Origin: Dehalococcoidia bacterium
Lineage (GTDB): Bacteria; Chloroflexota; Dehalococcoidia; DSTF01; JACRBR01
Direction of reading: 5' to 3'
Length of the DNA: 64,000 bases
Assembly: GCA_040902535.1 (NCBI GenBank)
Contig: JBBDXD010000022.1
Coordinates: 220,823-284,822 of the forward strand
Of this stretch, positions 19,031 through 23,662 are shown piece after piece. The notes beneath the pieces are model-generated. The model was not told where the DNA came from. It was given only the letters and a program-made list of their open reading frames with translations, and searched no databases. Numbering within the stretch: position 1 is the stretch's first letter; each line of letters starts with the position of its first letter. Made by a program: the position numbers and the translations under genes.

Positions 19031-19061
19031 TTGCCCGCAAGGCGCGCCGGCGGGCTATAAT
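19031..19061 (+). promoter_or_regulatory. Candidate sigma-70 promoter
   Basis: Perfect TATAAT at 19056-19061, TTGCCC 19 nt upstream (long spacer). Confidence 0.5.
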
Positions 19062-19163
19062 CGCTGTCAACGTCCGCGGGATTCTGACAACAAAACTGCA
19101 ACTTCCTCGACTGCCGCTGACGGCCGCGTTTCGCGCCGCTCTCACGTGTTCGGGAAGGCAAGG

Positions 19164-19880
19164 ATGCACGCAACACTTTCGATGCCATCGTTAGCAGAAC
19201 TCTGGGGCCTGCAAGAAATCGACAGCGCGCTCGATACGCGCCGCGCGTCGCTCGATGATGCACGCGCGCGTATCGGCGACACGGAAGAGATCGTTGCACT
19301 GCGAGCGCGCGTCGAAGATCTGAAGGCGGCGTCGCGCAACGCGCAGTCGGCACAGAAGGACATTGAACTGGAAGCCGACGATCTCAAGTCGAAGATCGAG
19401 CCGGCAGAACAAAAGCTGTATGGCGGCACGGTCCGCAATCCACGCGAACTGAGCGACTTGCAGGCGGACATCGCGCAGCTCAAGCAGCATCTCTCCGCCG
19501 TCGAGGACCGCGACCTGGAGGCCCTCACGGCATCGGAGAAGGCGGACAACGAGTTGCGCGAAGCCACCGCCGAACTGGAATCCCTCGAAGCCGCCTGGCG
19601 GGAGGAACAGGCGGAGCTGCGCGAGCGCATCGACCGGCTATCGGCTGAGATCGCAATCTACGAGCGGCAGCGCAAAGAGCACGCCGCGGACATCGAGCCG
19701 GACCTGGTGAAGACCTACGAGCACGTACGCAGGGCGCACCAGGGGAGGGGAGTTGCCAGACTCGACCGGAATCTGTGCCTGGGATGCCGGATCTCGCTTC
19801 CGGTGAGCACCGTCAACCGCGCCCGCGCGGGCGCTGTGGTCGTGCAATGCCCGAACTGCGAACGCATTTTGTACGCGTGA
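19164..19880 (+). CDS. Coiled-coil C4 zinc-ribbon protein (DUF164/CT398-like)
   Basis: L..LQEID, long coiled coil, CLGC...CPNCERIL. Start 19164 or 19182. Confidence 0.92.
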   Translation: MHATLSMPSLAELWGLQEIDSALDTRRASLDDARARIGDTEEIVALRARVEDLKAASRNAQSAQKDIELEADDLKSKIEPAEQKLYGGTVRNPRELSDLQADIAQLKQHLSAVEDRDLEALTASEKADNELREATAELESLEAAWREEQAELRERIDRLSAEIAIYERQRKEHAADIEPDLVKTYEHVRRAHQGRGVARLDRNLCLGCRISLPVSTVNRARAGAVVVQCPNCERILYA

Positions 19881-19881
19881 C

Positions 19882-21288
19882 ATGAAGGCGGTCGGATACT
19901 TCCGAGAGGCGCCGGAGTGCGGCCAGACGCTTGCTCAGCAGAACAAGCTCTTCCTGGAGTTCTGCGATCGCGAAGGCTACGAGGTCGCGGGCACGTTCGC
20001 CGATGGCGCTTCGTCCAACGGGCGGGCGCCGGGGTTCCGCCAACTCGTCGCGTTCCTGCGCGAGCGCGAAGGCGCCTTCCACGTCGTCGTGGTGCCGAGC
20101 ATGGAGACGCTCGGCGGCGACGTGAGGGACGCGGCCGTGCGCTATTTCCAGATCGAAGGACTCGGCGCGCAACTCGCCTCGATGGACGGTACCGCCGATG
20201 CGTCGGCCGGACTGCTCTCGGCGTGGACCACGCACGACGACGGCAACAAGCTCAGCGACCGCGTGCGCGCGGCGATGCGACGCAAAGCCGTGAAGGGCGA
20301 AGTGCTCGGCCGGCCGCCGTACGGTTATAAGGTCGGCAACCGGCGGCGCCTGGAGCTGATCCCGGAAGAGGCAGTCGTCGTGCGTTACATTTACCGTCTC
20401 TACCTGCATGAGAGCATGGGCATCCGCCTGATCGCCCGGCGCCTGAACGAAGAAGGCCTGAAGACGCGGCGCGGCGGCAACTGGAGCATGGTGAGTATCC
20501 GCGACATCTTGCGGAACCGCGCCTATCTCGGCACGTACTCCCGGTTCGGCGTCCGCGTGCCCGGCAGCCATCCGTCGCTTGTCGCCAACGACGACTTCAA
20601 GCTCGTGCAGGACCGGCTCAACGCGCGTCGCACGAGTTATTCGCCGCGCGTGACGTCGCAGTTCCTGCTGTCCGGCATGGCGCACTGCGGCTACTGCGGC
20701 AACAAGCTGATCGGCGTCAGCCGCAAGCAGACCTGGAAGCGCAAGAGCGGCGAACGCGTCGAGAACTCGTACCGCTATTACCAGTGCGAGTCGCGCACGA
20801 ACCAGAGCGTCTGCAGCTACCACACGCGCCGCGCCGAAGATCTCGAGGCGGAGGTACGCGCGTCGATCGAGACGTCCGTCCGCGAGGGGCACGGCCTGCC
20901 GCCGGCCGCGAACGAGGCATCGCTTGTGGCGGATAAGGAGCACGAACGTGAGCGCCTGGCCTCCCGCGTCCGCGCCGTCGACAAGCGGCTGGAAGGCTAC
21001 GTGGAGGCAGCCGTCAAAGGACGTCTGACGAAGGAGAAGATGCACGAGTTGAGCGTTGCCGCCGCCTCGGACAGGCTCCGCCTCGAAGACGCGCTGGAAC
21101 TCGTAGAGCGTCGCATAACCGATCGCGAGCACGCGTCCGATCGCAAGCAGACGCGCGAGCGCGATGTAGCGCGCCTCGTGCGCGAGTGGAGCGACCTGCG
21201 CTTTGCGGAGCGCCAGAACGCCCTGCGCGAAGCGGTCTCCCGCGTGACGGTTTCCGACGATCGCATCGACGTCACGCTGCGCCCCTAA
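19882..21288 (+). CDS. Large serine recombinase-family protein with degenerate catalytic domain
   Basis: GRPPYGY, recombinase domain (IARRLN..G..T..G..WS..SIR.IL.N.AYLG), zinc ribbon (LLSG.AHCGYCG..YYQC..C) and coiled coil. N-terminal motif is YFREA instead of YxRxS. Confidence 0.88.
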   Translation: MKAVGYFREAPECGQTLAQQNKLFLEFCDREGYEVAGTFADGASSNGRAPGFRQLVAFLREREGAFHVVVVPSMETLGGDVRDAAVRYFQIEGLGAQLASMDGTADASAGLLSAWTTHDDGNKLSDRVRAAMRRKAVKGEVLGRPPYGYKVGNRRRLELIPEEAVVVRYIYRLYLHESMGIRLIARRLNEEGLKTRRGGNWSMVSIRDILRNRAYLGTYSRFGVRVPGSHPSLVANDDFKLVQDRLNARRTSYSPRVTSQFLLSGMAHCGYCGNKLIGVSRKQTWKRKSGERVENSYRYYQCESRTNQSVCSYHTRRAEDLEAEVRASIETSVREGHGLPPAANEASLVADKEHERERLASRVRAVDKRLEGYVEAAVKGRLTKEKMHELSVAAASDRLRLEDALELVERRITDREHASDRKQTRERDVARLVREWSDLRFAERQNALREAVSRVTVSDDRIDVTLRP

Positions 21289-21290
21289 CG

Positions 21291-22217
21291 GTGGCCGCCA
21301 AGAGCATCACCGTCGCCGCAACCGCGCCCGATGTGCTCACCCGGCTCGCCGCCGCTGCCGACAGCATGGAGCAGGCGCCCCTGCAGAACGGCACACGCGT
21401 CCGGCTGTCCATGAAGGGGGCCAGCGTCGGGCTCAACGTGTACCCATCGAAGGACGGCGGCGCCAAGGTCGTCTTCGACCGCGCCGACGCGCCGGAAGCT
21501 GATGCGATCGCGGCGCTGCTCGAAGGCGCGCCGTCGGCGGCGAAGACGCGCAAGCCGGCGGGGACGACGATCGAACCCGTGCTACCCGAGGCGCGGGCAT
21601 GGATCGGCAGCGACGAGAGCGGCAAGGGCGACTACTTCGGGCCGCTGGTCGTCGCGGCCGTGGCGCTGACGTTCGATAACTGGCGCGTGCTGCAGGCGCT
21701 CGGCGTGCAGGACAGTAAGAGCCTGTCCGACTCGCGGTCGGCTTCGCTCGCCGCGCAGATGCGCACGGCGTTCCCGAACAAGGTGGTCGTCGTCGGCAAC
21801 CGGCGCTACAACGAGTTGTGGGAAGAGATGGGCAGCGTCAACCGCCTGCTCGCCTGGGCGCACGCGCGCGCCATCGAAGACGTCATTGAGCTTGCACCGG
21901 CGTCGACGGTGGCCGTCGCCGACCAGTTCGGCGATGAGTCGCTGATCCGCAACGCGCTGATGCGGAAGGGGCGCGAACTGCAACTCGTGCAGATGCACCG
22001 GGCCGAGCGTGATCCTGCGGTGGCGGCGGCTTCGATCCTGGCGCGGGCGGAGTTCCTGCGCCGGCTCGACGCGCTATCGCGCGAGGCAGGCGTGCGACTC
22101 GCGAAAGGCGCATCTGCCGCGGTCGAGGCTACGGCGCGGGCGTTCGTGCAGCAGCGCGGCCGCGAAGCGCTGCGCGACGTGGCGAAGGTACACTTCCGCA
22201 CGACGTCAAAGCTGTGA
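21291..22217 (+). CDS. rnhC: Ribonuclease HIII
   Basis: IGSDESGKGDYFGP, GVQDSK, DQFG, AE.DPAVAAASILAR, plus an N-terminal extra domain. GTG 21291. Confidence 0.9.
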   Translation: MAAKSITVAATAPDVLTRLAAAADSMEQAPLQNGTRVRLSMKGASVGLNVYPSKDGGAKVVFDRADAPEADAIAALLEGAPSAAKTRKPAGTTIEPVLPEARAWIGSDESGKGDYFGPLVVAAVALTFDNWRVLQALGVQDSKSLSDSRSASLAAQMRTAFPNKVVVVGNRRYNELWEEMGSVNRLLAWAHARAIEDVIELAPASTVAVADQFGDESLIRNALMRKGRELQLVQMHRAERDPAVAAASILARAEFLRRLDALSREAGVRLAKGASAAVEATARAFVQQRGREALRDVAKVHFRTTSKL

Positions 22218-22226
22218 GCGCAGGGC

Positions 22227-22254
22227 TTCAGGCGTGATTCGCACACGATATAAT
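22227..22254 (+). promoter_or_regulatory. rnpB promoter
   Basis: TTCAGG-N16-TATAAT ending 5 nt before the RNA 5' stem. Confidence 0.7.
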
Positions 22255-22259
22255 GAGGG

Positions 22260-22628
22260 GCCAGCGGGCCGGGTGGCCGCTCCCGCAAGGGAGAGGAAAG
22301 TCCGAACTCCAAAGGGCAGGGTGCCCGCTAACGGCGGGGCGTCGCGAGGCGACGGAAAGTGCCACAGAAACATACCGGCCGTTTCGGCGGTCAAGGGTGA
22401 AATGGTGCGGTAAGAGCGCACCGGCGTCGCGGAGACGCGGCGGCCGGGCAAACCCCACCCGGAGCAAGGCTACATAGGGGACCGTGTCCTGACCGAAGGT
22501 CAGGCCTAAGGACGGCCCGTCCGAGCGTCCCGGGTCAGCCGCTTGAGCCGCGTGGCAACGCGCGGCCCAGATAGATGGTCACCGTCCGCTTTTGGCGGAC
22601 ACAGAATTCGGCTTACAGGCCCGCTGGC
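22260..22628 (+). ncRNA. rnpB: RNase P RNA (type A-like)
   Basis: GAGGAAAGTCC, AGTGCCACAGAAA, GGTAAGAG, GAGCAAG and ACAGAA..CGGCTTA signatures. Terminal GCCAGCGGGCC / GGCCCGCTGGC P1 pairing. Confidence 0.97.
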
Positions 22629-22715
22629 ATCTCCTCCCCCGCCCTTCGTCTGAGCCCGAACACCGTCGCACACCCGGCTTCGCTCCGTGCGCAGCAGAGA
22701 GTTATATTTCGCGGC

Positions 22716-23411
22716 ATGTCGCTCGATGAAGCTGACGCCCCGGCACGTTCGGCACCCGATCAAGGGCACGTCGCCGCGTCCGCCGACGACGCGAGCGTCG
22801 TCGCCGCGTTGCGGGCGCGGGACGAAGCCACCTTTGCGATGCTCCTCGAACGCTACAACAATTCGCTGCTGCGTCTCGCGATGACCTATCTGCATGACCA
22901 GGCGTCGGCGGAAGAGGTCGTGCAGGATGCGTGGATCGGGCTGCTCGAGAGTCTCGATCGGTTCGAGGGGCGGTCTTCGCTGAAGACGTGGCTCTTTCGC
23001 ATTCTGGTCAACTGCGCGCGTGCCCGGGCGCGCAAGGACGCCCGCACGATCCCCTTCTCCGCCGCCTTTCGTCCCGAGGAGTTGGACGCGGGAGAGCGCA
23101 CAGGCCGTTTCGTTCCCGACTGGGTGCCCGTCCTGGGCGGGCACTGGGTACGGCCGGTGGCGCAATGGCAGGACGATCCGGAGCACCGGGCGCTTGCCCA
23201 CGAGACGCGCGCGCACATCCAGCGCAGCATCGACGAACTGCCCCCGGTGCAGCGCGAAGTGATCATGCTGCGCGACGTGGCCGGCTTCGACGCGCACGAG
23301 GTCTGTAATGTCCTGGGACTCACGAACACTAACCAGCGGGTCATCCTGCATCGCGCCCGGACGAGCGTGAGGCGAGCGCTGGAGCGCCATTTCGCGGAGG
23401 CAAGGGCTTGA
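22716..23411 (+). CDS. ECF RNA polymerase sigma factor
   Basis: AEEVVQDAW, F.GRSSLKTWL.RI..N and LPP.QREVI.LRD motifs. ATG 22716. Confidence 0.93.
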   Translation: MSLDEADAPARSAPDQGHVAASADDASVVAALRARDEATFAMLLERYNNSLLRLAMTYLHDQASAEEVVQDAWIGLLESLDRFEGRSSLKTWLFRILVNCARARARKDARTIPFSAAFRPEELDAGERTGRFVPDWVPVLGGHWVRPVAQWQDDPEHRALAHETRAHIQRSIDELPPVQREVIMLRDVAGFDAHEVCNVLGLTNTNQRVILHRARTSVRRALERHFAEARA

Positions 23412-23662
23412 GGGATGCCGCGCCGATCAAGTGCCGCGAACTCGTCGAACTGGTCACGGACTACGTCGAGGGGGCGCTATCGCCAGGCGCGCGCGCGCAC
23501 TTCGAGGCGCATCTGCGGGGCTGCCCGTGGTGCACGCGATACCTGGAGCAGATGCGCAGGACGATCGAAATGACCGGCCGCCTGCGCGAGGAGGATCTCT
23601 CGCCCGCCATGCGCACGACGCTGCTCGCCGCGTTTCGCGCCTGGGGCGCCGGCGCATTGTAA
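23408..23662 (+). CDS. Soluble zf-HC2 (ZAS) anti-sigma factor
   Basis: C.ELVELVTDY.EG.L and HL.GCPWC (Hx3Cx2C). No TM helix. TTGA-coupled to the sigma gene. Confidence 0.92.
   Translation: MRDAAPIKCRELVELVTDYVEGALSPGARAHFEAHLRGCPWCTRYLEQMRRTIEMTGRLREEDLSPAMRTTLLAAFRAWGAGAL

What the first reader, a model, noticed from the sequence alone, without database searches (positions are those of the whole stretch)
19882..21288. Catalytically dead large serine recombinase embedded in a core operon
Seen: the catalytic motif YxRxS reads YFREA (Ser to Ala), the DRLxR motif reads ETLGG, and the RP after D.G.SG reads AP. The recombinase DNA-binding domain, zinc ribbon (CGYC..YYQC..C) and coiled coil look intact. 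The frame is full length (468 aa) and sits 1-2 nt from both neighbours. Established: the Ser and these Arg residues are required for serine recombinase chemistry. Inference: a domesticated, non-catalytic DNA-binding or synapsing protein rather than an integrase. No other mobile-element genes are nearby.
Basis: partly seen in the sequence, partly recalled or inferred. Interest (0 to 1): 0.75.

Follow-up and report, generated by a model that had tools for sequence, protein, structure and literature searches.

The report
Dead serine recombinase turned housekeeping protein
A phage-type DNA-cutting enzyme that has lost its cutting residues is kept under strong selection in hundreds of Dehalococcoidia species, always right after the same partner gene and usually just upstream of the RNase P RNA gene, so it has evidently taken on a new, non-cutting job that is still unknown.

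Summary
It has the resolvase-fold N-domain, recombinase domain, four-Cys zinc ribbon and coiled coil. Its catalytic pocket is broken: gamma-delta S10->A, R45->A, D67->E, R68->T, R71->G.

This is a family trait, not a private mutation.
- In 189 close relatives the Ser position varies (S 49%, A, P, T...).
- Arg68 survives in 3/189 and Arg71 in 12/189.
- 93 of 99 full-length 50%-cluster representatives are equally dead.

The gene is under purifying selection (dN/dS median 0.12, every domain). It is as conserved as fabD and tatC, and it is inherited vertically.

The synteny is strict. A CT398/DUF164-type coiled-coil zinc-ribbon gene lies directly upstream in 79/79 loci, with a gap of 4 nt or less in 68. 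An RNase H gene follows (HI in 49 loci, HIII in 18), then rnpB (63/80). Four very distant members show the same pattern. The nearest catalytically intact relatives sit in mobile-element contexts without CT398.

Best reading: a domesticated, non-catalytic nucleic-acid-binding protein that works with the CT398-like protein, which has been predicted to bind RNA polymerase. That partnership and the target are inferred. No binding site was found and nothing was found in the literature.

The parts
19031..19061 (+). Sigma-70-type promoter of the CT398-like/recombinase operon (-35-like TTGCCC 19031-19036, -10 TATAAT 19056-19061)
   Evidence: cTTG-N(17-19)-cTATAATC is conserved in 66 of 68 orthologous intergenic regions. 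It is the only conserved non-coding block found near the operon. Promoter function is inferred.
19164..19880 (+). CT398/HP0958/DUF164-type coiled-coil hairpin plus C4 zinc-ribbon protein (238 aa), the invariant upstream partner gene
   Evidence: Pfam CT398_CC 57.9 bits and Zn_ribbon_9 40 bits. Directly upstream of the recombinase homologue in 79/79 loci. Stop-to-start gap is 4 nt or less in 68/79 loci. Also present in distant members L081, L082 and L084.
19882..21288 (+). Catalytically dead large serine recombinase homologue (468 aa)
19882..20226 (+). N-terminal resolvase-fold domain (aa 1-115) with a degraded active site: A10 (19909-19911), A49-P50 (20026-20031), E75-T76-L77-G78-G79 (20104-20118)
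   Evidence: hhalign mapping to gamma-delta resolvase. Foldseek match to the TP901-1 catalytic domain 3bvp, TM 0.71 normalised to the target. dN/dS 0.14.
20227..20631 (+). Helix alpha-E, the GRPPYGY linker and the recombinase domain (aa 116-250). This is the most conserved part of the protein and is very basic (pI 10.9).
   Evidence: 55% of RD columns are at least 95% identical in 189 relatives. dN/dS 0.07. Pfam Recombinase 71 bits. pI.
20632..21285 (+). Zinc-ribbon domain (C269, C272, C302, C311) with the inserted coiled coil (aa ~331-440) and the C-terminal beta-hairpin
   Evidence: Pfam Zn_ribbon_recom 44 bits. The four Cys are invariant. AF2 helices 345-378 and 384-413 form a hairpin. Aligns to the A118 integrase C-terminal domain, 4kis.
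21291..22217 (+). RNase HIII gene (GTG start 2 nt after the recombinase stop)
   Evidence: TIGR00716 rnhC 186 bits, cutoff 161. In relatives the same slot holds RNase HIII (18 loci) or RNase HI (49 loci).
22249..22631 (+). rnpB (RNase P RNA, class A, 22261-22631) with its own -10 element (TATAAT 22249-22254)
   Evidence: Rfam RF00010 282.8 bits. Lies downstream on the same strand in 63/80 loci and in four distant members. A -10 element sits 7-9 nt before the mature 5' end in nearly all 55 loci aligned.

Best explanation
The gene encodes a pseudo-recombinase. An ancestral phage or mobile-element large serine integrase was captured in an early Dehalococcoidia/Chloroflexota lineage. It sits between a CT398/DUF164-type gene and the RNase H and rnpB genes. 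It lost its cleavage chemistry and has since been kept as a vertically inherited core gene.

Shown:
- The catalytic pocket is gone throughout the clade.
- The whole LSR architecture is retained under purifying selection: dimerising N-domain and alpha-E helix, basic recombinase domain, zinc ribbon and coiled coil.
- The gene is almost always packed within 4 nt behind the CT398-like gene.

Inferred:
- The protein still binds nucleic acid, most likely DNA, through RD and ZD as a dimer. It does not cut.
- It acts as a sequence- or structure-specific tether or bridge for the CT398-like protein made with it. Its coiled coil is the likely contact point.
- CT398-family proteins have been reported to act on sigma-54 and have been predicted to bind RNA polymerase beta'. 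The pair is therefore most likely a transcription- or RNA-metabolism-linked housekeeping module. That would fit its persistent linkage to RNase H and rnpB.
For: Dead active site in the window protein.

Close clade of 189 sequences:
- S10-equivalent: S 92, A 36, P 18, T 17, others.
- R68-equivalent is Arg in 3.
- R71-equivalent is Arg in 12.
- R45-equivalent is Ala in 103.

Wider clade: 93 of 99 full-length 50%-identity representatives lack the S10+R68+R71 set.

Y6, R8, S10, D36, R68 and R71 are the residues whose mutation greatly reduces Tn3 resolvase catalysis. None of those mutations strongly inhibits DNA binding (PMC2794168).

Fold retained: AF2 pLDDT 79.6. Foldseek top hits are the SPbeta, Bxb1 and A118 integrases at E 1e-19 to 1e-14.

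Selection:
- dN/dS median 0.12 over 65 pairs; NTD 0.14, RD 0.07, ZD 0.10, CC 0.16.
- Mean identity 61%, equal to fabD and tatC and above CT398-like at 51%.
- Pairwise distances track housekeeping genes, r 0.79-0.87.

Partner gene: CT398-like upstream in 79/79 loci, gap of 4 nt or less in 68/79. It is also upstream in distant members, each with rnpB downstream.

The closest intact LSRs lie in mobile-element-like contexts without CT398.

RD and alpha-E have pI 10.9, ZD 9.2, and the CT398-like protein 5.1.

Literature:
- DUF164 genes are linked to rpoD, dnaG, rnhA and rnpB in other phyla (PMC3372290).
- CT398-family proteins are predicted to bind RNAP beta', with the coiled coil reaching the sigma site (bioRxiv 10.64898/2026.07.15.738315).
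- Rv2229c is essential in M. tuberculosis (PMC5947703).
Against: - No experiment exists on any member.
- No conserved palindromic or att-like site was found in or around the operon. Only promoter elements are conserved.
- A mirror-tree test showed no co-evolution between SR and CT398 beyond that seen with fabD (partial r 0.31 vs 0.35).
- RNAP binding by CT398-family proteins is itself an AI prediction in a preprint.
- Adjacency could be a frozen accident of where the ancestral element landed, with the two proteins working independently.
- Half of the close orthologues keep Ser at the nucleophile position, and Y6, R8 and D36 are conserved. The N-domain pocket may therefore still do something, such as binding phosphate.
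Confidence: 0.5

Rival explanations
1. A stand-alone non-catalytic DNA-binding protein, such as a transcription regulator, nucleoid-associated protein or DNA-bridging protein that uses the coiled coil to synapse sites. Its function would be independent of the CT398-like neighbour, and the adjacency would be only historical.
For: The RD, ZD and CC domains are intact, basic and conserved. Serine recombinase subunits have known purely architectural roles at accessory sites; Sin site II (2r0q) and Tn3 site III (5cy1) are among the fold matches. There is no extra co-evolution signal with CT398.
Against: 79/79 adjacency and 0-4 nt spacing persist over a clade so divergent that members share only about 30% identity. 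That is hard to keep without functional coupling. No operator-like site was found near its own promoter.
Confidence: 0.25
2. An RNA- or hybrid-directed role. The protein would bind RNase P RNA, pre-tRNA or RNA:DNA hybrids and act with RNase H and rnpB, for example as a chaperone, assembly factor or R-loop sensor.
For: rnpB is downstream on the same strand in 63/80 loci and in all four distant members tested. In several loci rnpB starts only 37-192 nt after the stop codon. An RNase H gene is kept in between even though its type is swapped between HI and HIII. HP0958 was recalled, not checked here, to bind flaA mRNA.
Against: rnpB has its own -10 element, so co-transcription is not required. DUF164-rnhA/rnpB linkage predates the recombinase and exists in phyla without it. 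RD and ZD are known as double-stranded-DNA-binding modules (4kis). Whether these genomes have rnpA could not be checked.
Confidence: 0.15
3. Still an active site-specific recombinase that uses a non-canonical active site or a nucleophile supplied elsewhere.
For: Y6, R8 and D36 equivalents are conserved in the close clade, and 49% of members keep Ser at position 10.
Against: The nucleophile position drifts (A, P, T, G, V...). R68 and R71 are absent in 98% and 94% of close members. Even R8 is lost in over half of the wider clade. Mutations of R68 or R71 greatly reduce cleavage and recombination by resolvase (PMC2794168). There are no att-like repeats, no mobile-element genes, and the gene is inherited vertically.
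Confidence: 0.03
4. A decaying integrase remnant, that is, a neutral pseudogene that happens to be still open.
For: Loss of catalytic residues.
Against: Full-length ORFs in 80 species-level genomes. dN/dS is 0.12 in all domains. Conservation equals fabD and tatC. There are 529 50%-identity clusters at E<=1e-30.
Confidence: 0.01

Closest known systems
Large serine integrases (Listeria A118/LI integrase 4kis, SPbeta SprA/YokA 9dxd/9y66, Bxb1 9iu2, phiC31 4bqq, TP901-1 3bvp)
   Same: Same four-part architecture and fold: resolvase-type N-domain with alpha-E helix, recombinase domain, zinc-ribbon domain with an inserted coiled coil. PHROG 95 'integrase' scores 251 bits.
   Different: Lacks the Ser nucleophile and Arg68, Arg71, Asp67 and Arg45. 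It is not in a mobile element, has no att sites, is vertically inherited as a core gene, and has a fixed partner gene that is not a known RDF.
Host-domesticated but active LSRs (SpoIVCA, XisF, staphylococcal CcrA/B/C)
   Same: LSR-family proteins that serve a host or cassette function rather than phage integration.
   Different: By established knowledge, which I did not test here, those enzymes keep the catalytic residues and still excise or integrate DNA. Against the NCBIfam models the window protein scores 51-55 bits, where the cutoffs are 375-900. It is not a member of any of them.
Architectural, non-catalytic use of serine recombinase subunits at accessory sites (Tn3/gamma-delta res sites II and III, Sin site II)
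   Same: Serine recombinase dimers that bind DNA and build a complex without cutting. This is a precedent for a purely structural role (5cy1 and 2r0q among the fold matches).
   Different: There the same catalytically competent protein is used. Here the protein is dead throughout the family and is not associated with a recombination site.
CT398 (CdsZ) / HP0958 (FlgZ) / MSMEG_4306-Rv2229c, the DUF164 (COG1579) family, which is the partner gene
   Same: The upstream gene has the CT398 coiled-coil hairpin and C4 zinc ribbon. Linkage of this family to rnhA and rnpB is known in other phyla.
   Different: No recombinase-like partner is mentioned in the DUF164 passages I read in four papers, and the other literature searches found none. 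The NCBIfam CdsZ model scores 51.8 bits against a cutoff of 275.
Pseudoenzymes in general (e.g. iRhom pseudoproteases)
   Same: A conserved enzyme fold with lost catalytic residues, kept under selection for binding or scaffolding.
   Different: Different fold and biology. I found no described pseudo-serine-recombinase family.

Membership tests
Serine recombinase superfamily / large serine recombinase (as a fold family) | N-terminal resolvase-type catalytic-domain fold followed by the alpha-E helix | tested here: met
   Pfam Resolvase 42.5 bits, cutoff 23.3. hhalign to gamma-delta resolvase gives probability 77% over 161 columns. Foldseek to 3bvp gives TM 0.71 and rmsd 3.4 A.
Serine recombinase superfamily / large serine recombinase (as an enzyme) | Catalytic residues Y6, R8, S10, D36, R68, R71 (Tn3/gamma-delta numbering) | tested here: not met
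   Window protein: Y, R, A, D, T, G. The clade-wide absence of R68 and R71 and the variable S10 position are shown. Their necessity is shown in PMC2794168.
Large serine recombinase | Recombinase domain (PF07508) plus zinc-ribbon domain (PF13408) with four Zn ligands and an inserted coiled coil | tested here: met
   71 and 44 bits. C269, C272, C302 and C311 are invariant. Coiled-coil hairpin in the model. Alignment to A118 integrase residues 25-315.
Large serine integrase of a phage or mobile element | Located in a mobile element with att sites; patchy, horizontally transferred distribution | tested here: not met
   Housekeeping neighbours. No repeats or att-like sites. No GC anomaly. Same locus in 80 species. 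Distances track housekeeping genes.
Large serine recombinase | Catalyses site-specific DNA cleavage and strand exchange | not testable with these tools
   Needs an in vitro cleavage or recombination assay.
XisF / CcrA / CcrB / CcrC equivalogs (NCBIfam) | Score above the curated equivalog cutoff | tested here: not met
   51-55 bits against cutoffs of 375-900.
Domesticated pseudoenzyme (operational definition) | Catalytic residues lost across the clade, purifying selection, and stable vertical synteny | tested here: met
   loss; selection; synteny and vertical descent.
Known anti-phage defence systems (PADLOC) | Significant match of either protein to a defence-system model | tested here: not met
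   Only weak coiled-coil matches to LmuB and JetC, 13-25 bits.

The most novel reading that the evidence does not exclude
A whole bacterial class has turned a phage integrase into an obligate, non-catalytic subunit of a conserved RNA-polymerase-associated module with the CT398/DUF164 protein. The former att-site-reading domains and coiled coil would position or bridge the transcription machinery, or RNase H, at specific DNA sites. That would make it a recombinase-derived housekeeping transcription or R-loop factor.
Probability: 0.3. Interest if true: 0.85.

Novelty: new variant of a known kind. Interest (0 to 1): 0.7.

Why it matters
Large serine recombinases are known as phage and mobile-element enzymes and as genome-engineering tools. 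A large, old, vertically inherited clade that has lost the chemistry but kept every DNA-recognition and protein-interaction module would be a clear prokaryotic case of recombinase domestication into a non-enzymatic core protein. The clade spans at least 275 species genomes and hundreds of 50%-identity clusters.

It also gives a new handle on the CT398/DUF164 family. That family is widespread, is essential in M. tuberculosis, and its function is unresolved. Here it has an invariant partner with recognisable DNA-binding domains. It also keeps a linkage to RNase H and rnpB that persists even when the type of RNase H is swapped.

Practically, hundreds of natural catalytically dead LSR scaffolds could inform the design of DNA-binding-only LSR derivatives.

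Tried and rejected
1. Search for a DNA target. I looked for inverted repeats around the operon, aligned 68 upstream intergenic regions, and counted k-mers in unmasked sequence of 81 loci. Only the promoter -35 and -10 elements are conserved. A GATCGCCTATAATCGC block with a short CGAT-N8-ATCG repeat exists in part of the close clade but not in the window. No att-like 40-50 bp palindrome was found.

2. Co-transcription as the reason for rnpB linkage. I rejected it as the sole reason because rnpB carries its own -10 element in nearly all loci.

3. Mirror-tree co-evolution of SR with CT398. The result was inconclusive.

4. Expression evidence. No RNA runs hold this sequence.

5. Defence-system hypothesis. 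There are no PADLOC matches beyond coiled-coil noise.

6. PDB sequence searches did not align the N-domain to any solved resolvase. Only profile-profile and fold comparison did.

7. Literature. Three searches for inactive or domesticated serine recombinases found nothing on this family. A profile search for cultured hosts returned only Dehalococcoidia and Chloroflexota MAG names.

9. Whether these genomes encode rnpA, and whether sister classes have CT398-rnh-rnpB without the recombinase, could not be checked.

Full report
**1. The observation**

window:19882-21288(+) is an intact ORF of 468 aa. The upstream gene's TGA ends 1 nt before its ATG. A GTG at 21291 starts the next gene 2 nt after its TAA.

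Pfam finds all three LSR modules: Resolvase at 42.5 bits, which is weak but above the 23.3 cutoff; Recombinase at 71 bits; Zn_ribbon_recom at 44 bits. PHROG 95 'integrase' scores 251 bits.

I then aligned it to a profile of 23 orthologues. The mapping is:
- Kept: Y6, R8, D36 (= D41).
- Changed: S10 -> A10, R45 -> A49, D67/R68/R71 -> E75/T76/G79.

According to Olorunniji & Stark (PMC2794168), Y6, R8, S10, D36, R68 and R71 are the six residues whose mutation greatly reduces catalysis, and none of those mutations strongly inhibits DNA binding.

Contigs from two sediment-metagenome runs reproduce the locus with no differences.

**2. A family trait, not a private lesion**

A protein search returned 1376 relatives at E<=1e-5. 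The top 120 are full length, 61-82% identical, and labelled Dehalococcoidia or Chloroflexota. A scan of one genome per GTDB species found 275 genomes encoding a relative, and 80 loci were kept.

In 189 distinct close relatives:
- The Ser-10 position is S 92, A 36, P 18, T 17, plus G, V, D, R, L, M, Q, I and F.
- The R68 position is Arg in 3.
- The R71 position is Arg in 12.
- The D67 position is E 69, D 27, A 27 and others.
- The R45 position is Ala in 103.
- Y6 (182), R8 (180) and D36 (D 158, E 29) persist.

So the nucleophile position drifts, and the two essential arginines are gone throughout.

An exhaustive profile search of 1.84 billion cluster representatives gave 529 clusters at E<=1e-30. 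Of 99 full-length representatives among the best 150, 93 lack the S10+R68+R71 set. In this wider set even R8 is often lost. The six with a canonical YxRVS...SG..RP...DRFGR pattern all score 184.5 bits or less, at the bottom of the list.

Two of these intact relatives sit in mobile-element-like contexts with no CT398-type gene. One lies beside an Xre-type HTH gene, and the other lies amid runs of small unannotated ORFs.

**3. The fold is kept**

An AF2 model built on 118 sequences has mean pLDDT 79.6. It shows a beta-alpha N-domain, a long alpha-E helix, a helical recombinase domain, a beta-rich zinc ribbon and a long helical hairpin.

The best Foldseek matches in the PDB are the SPbeta integrase, Bxb1 and the A118 integrase (E 4e-19 to 1e-13). 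The N-domain superposes on the TP901-1 catalytic domain with TM 0.71. The four zinc ligands are invariant.

**4. Selection and inheritance**

Nei-Gojobori dN/dS over 65 orthologue pairs has a median of 0.12. By domain:
- N-domain 0.14.
- alpha-E plus RD 0.07.
- ZD 0.10.
- Coiled coil plus C-terminus 0.16.

In 41 loci that share all neighbours, mean identity to the window protein is 61%. That equals fabD (61%) and tatC (61%) and exceeds the CT398-like gene (51%) and yceD (48%).

Pairwise distances correlate with those of housekeeping genes at r 0.79-0.87, as expected for vertical descent.

The recombinase domain is the most conserved part, with 55% of columns at least 95% identical. Together with alpha-E it is strongly basic (pI 10.9). 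ZD has pI 9.2.

**5. Synteny**

- A CT398_CC plus Zn_ribbon_9 gene lies directly upstream on the same strand in all 79 loci that have upstream sequence. The stop-to-start gap is -1 to 4 nt in 68 of them.
- Downstream, within about 200 nt, lies RNase HIII in 18 loci (as in the window) or RNase HI in 49 loci.
- rnpB follows on the same strand in 63 of 80 loci.
- Where no RNase H gene intervenes, rnpB starts as little as 37-192 nt after the stop codon.

I checked four very distant dead members that score only 187-361 bits against the profile. All have a CT398-like or equivalent ORF directly upstream and rnpB downstream.

The rest of the neighbourhood is housekeeping: tatAC, acpP, nusB, fabG, fabD, rpmF and yceD on the opposite strand, and an ECF sigma/anti-sigma pair downstream. 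The window has no paralogue and no tRNA.

**6. Regulatory signals**

The divergent intergenic region carries a conserved cTTG-N17-19-cTATAATC promoter in 66/68 loci. rnpB has its own -10 element 7-9 nt before its mature 5' end in nearly all loci (window TATAAT 22249-22254). The rnpB linkage is therefore not simply co-transcription.

I found no further conserved non-coding element and no att-like palindrome.

**7. How it most likely works**

Shown: the protein cannot perform canonical serine-recombinase chemistry. It is nevertheless maintained as a complete LSR-shaped protein, tightly packed behind a CT398-type gene.

Inferred: it binds nucleic acid through RD and ZD as a dimer and uses its coiled coil for protein contacts, as LSRs do. 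Its constant partner is the acidic (pI 5.1) coiled-coil zinc-ribbon protein encoded just upstream.

Literature bearing on this:
- DUF164 genes are linked to rpoD, dnaG, rnhA and rnpB in several phyla that have no such recombinase (PMC3372290).
- A 2026 preprint predicts that CT398-family proteins dock on RNAP beta', with the coiled coil reaching the sigma-binding region.
- The mycobacterial homologue Rv2229c is essential.

The most economical model has two steps. An integrase landed in an older CT398-RNase H-rnpB cluster. It was then recruited as a DNA-reading or bridging accessory of that transcription- or RNA-linked module.

I put about 0.95 on 'dead and domesticated' and about 0.5 on the partner and tether mechanism. 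The rivals are a stand-alone DNA binder (0.25), an RNA- or hybrid-directed role (0.15), a cryptic active enzyme (0.03) and a neutral relic (0.01).

**8. Comparison with what is known**

The protein belongs to the LSR fold family but fails the enzymatic and mobile-element criteria. It is far below the cutoffs for XisF and CcrA/B/C.

Architectural, non-cutting roles of serine-recombinase subunits at res accessory sites are a mechanistic precedent. In those cases, however, the same active protein is used.

Searches for inactive or domesticated serine recombinases, and the DUF164 literature I read, turned up no description of this family or of a recombinase partner for DUF164. All named members are MAGs. 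No cultured host was seen.

**9. Verdict**

This is a real, robust and apparently undescribed family-level feature: a clade-wide pseudo-recombinase with an invariant partner gene.
- Ser loss is not consistent. The consistent loss is of the arginines.
- The RNase H slot is more often HI than HIII.
- The defining neighbour is the CT398-like gene.

The function and the target remain to be found.

Noticed in passing
window 21291-22217; L079 7410-7829; 80 loci: The gene slot between the dead recombinase and rnpB is filled by RNase HIII in 18 loci (as in the window) and by an unrelated RNase HI in 49 loci. This is a non-orthologous replacement at the same operon position, which suggests the RNase H activity itself is what the locus needs.
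   Followed up: partly
window 22249-22261 and 55 orthologous loci: rnpB has its own strong -10 element (TATAAT, TATACT or TACAAT) only 7-9 nt before the mature 5' end. The primary transcript therefore probably starts at or near the mature end, immediately after the stop codon of the upstream protein gene.
   Followed up: partly
L001-L046 upstream regions (aligned); window 19040-19065: In part of the close clade the -10 element of the CT398 operon sits in a longer conserved block, GATCGCCTATAATCGC, with a short CGAT-N8-ATCG inverted repeat. The block is absent from the window itself. It could be an operator or just promoter context.
   Followed up: partly
50%-cluster representatives P0137-P0255 (N-terminal alignment): The more distant dead subclade has a conserved 'xHLGxDLE' motif where active enzymes have 'DRLGR'. 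His occupies the Arg68 position in 44 of 93 representatives. This hints at a new conserved feature in the old active-site loop.
   Followed up: no
L007, L008, L031 (MAG MFD02416.bin.1.78): One MAG carries the whole tatC-to-rnpB locus on three different contigs at about 99% identity. This probably reflects strain mixture or assembly redundancy rather than true triplication.
   Followed up: no
L021 and L051: There are exceptions to the synteny. In L021 the yceD-rpmF-fab cluster lies downstream on the + strand and rnpB lies upstream on the opposite strand. In L051 rnpB is downstream but inverted.
   Followed up: no
window 22367-22487: Contig depth in the two metagenome runs jumps from about 45x to about 1400x over the conserved core of rnpB. 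Many short contigs break there. Conserved rnpB sequence from other community members is collapsing onto this stretch.
   Followed up: no
window 22575-23662: An ECF sigma factor (Sigma70_r2/r4_2) and a zf-HC2 anti-sigma gene follow rnpB. The longest ORF for the sigma gene (from 22575) would overlap the 3' end of rnpB (22631), so the true start is probably further downstream, around 22731.
   Followed up: partly
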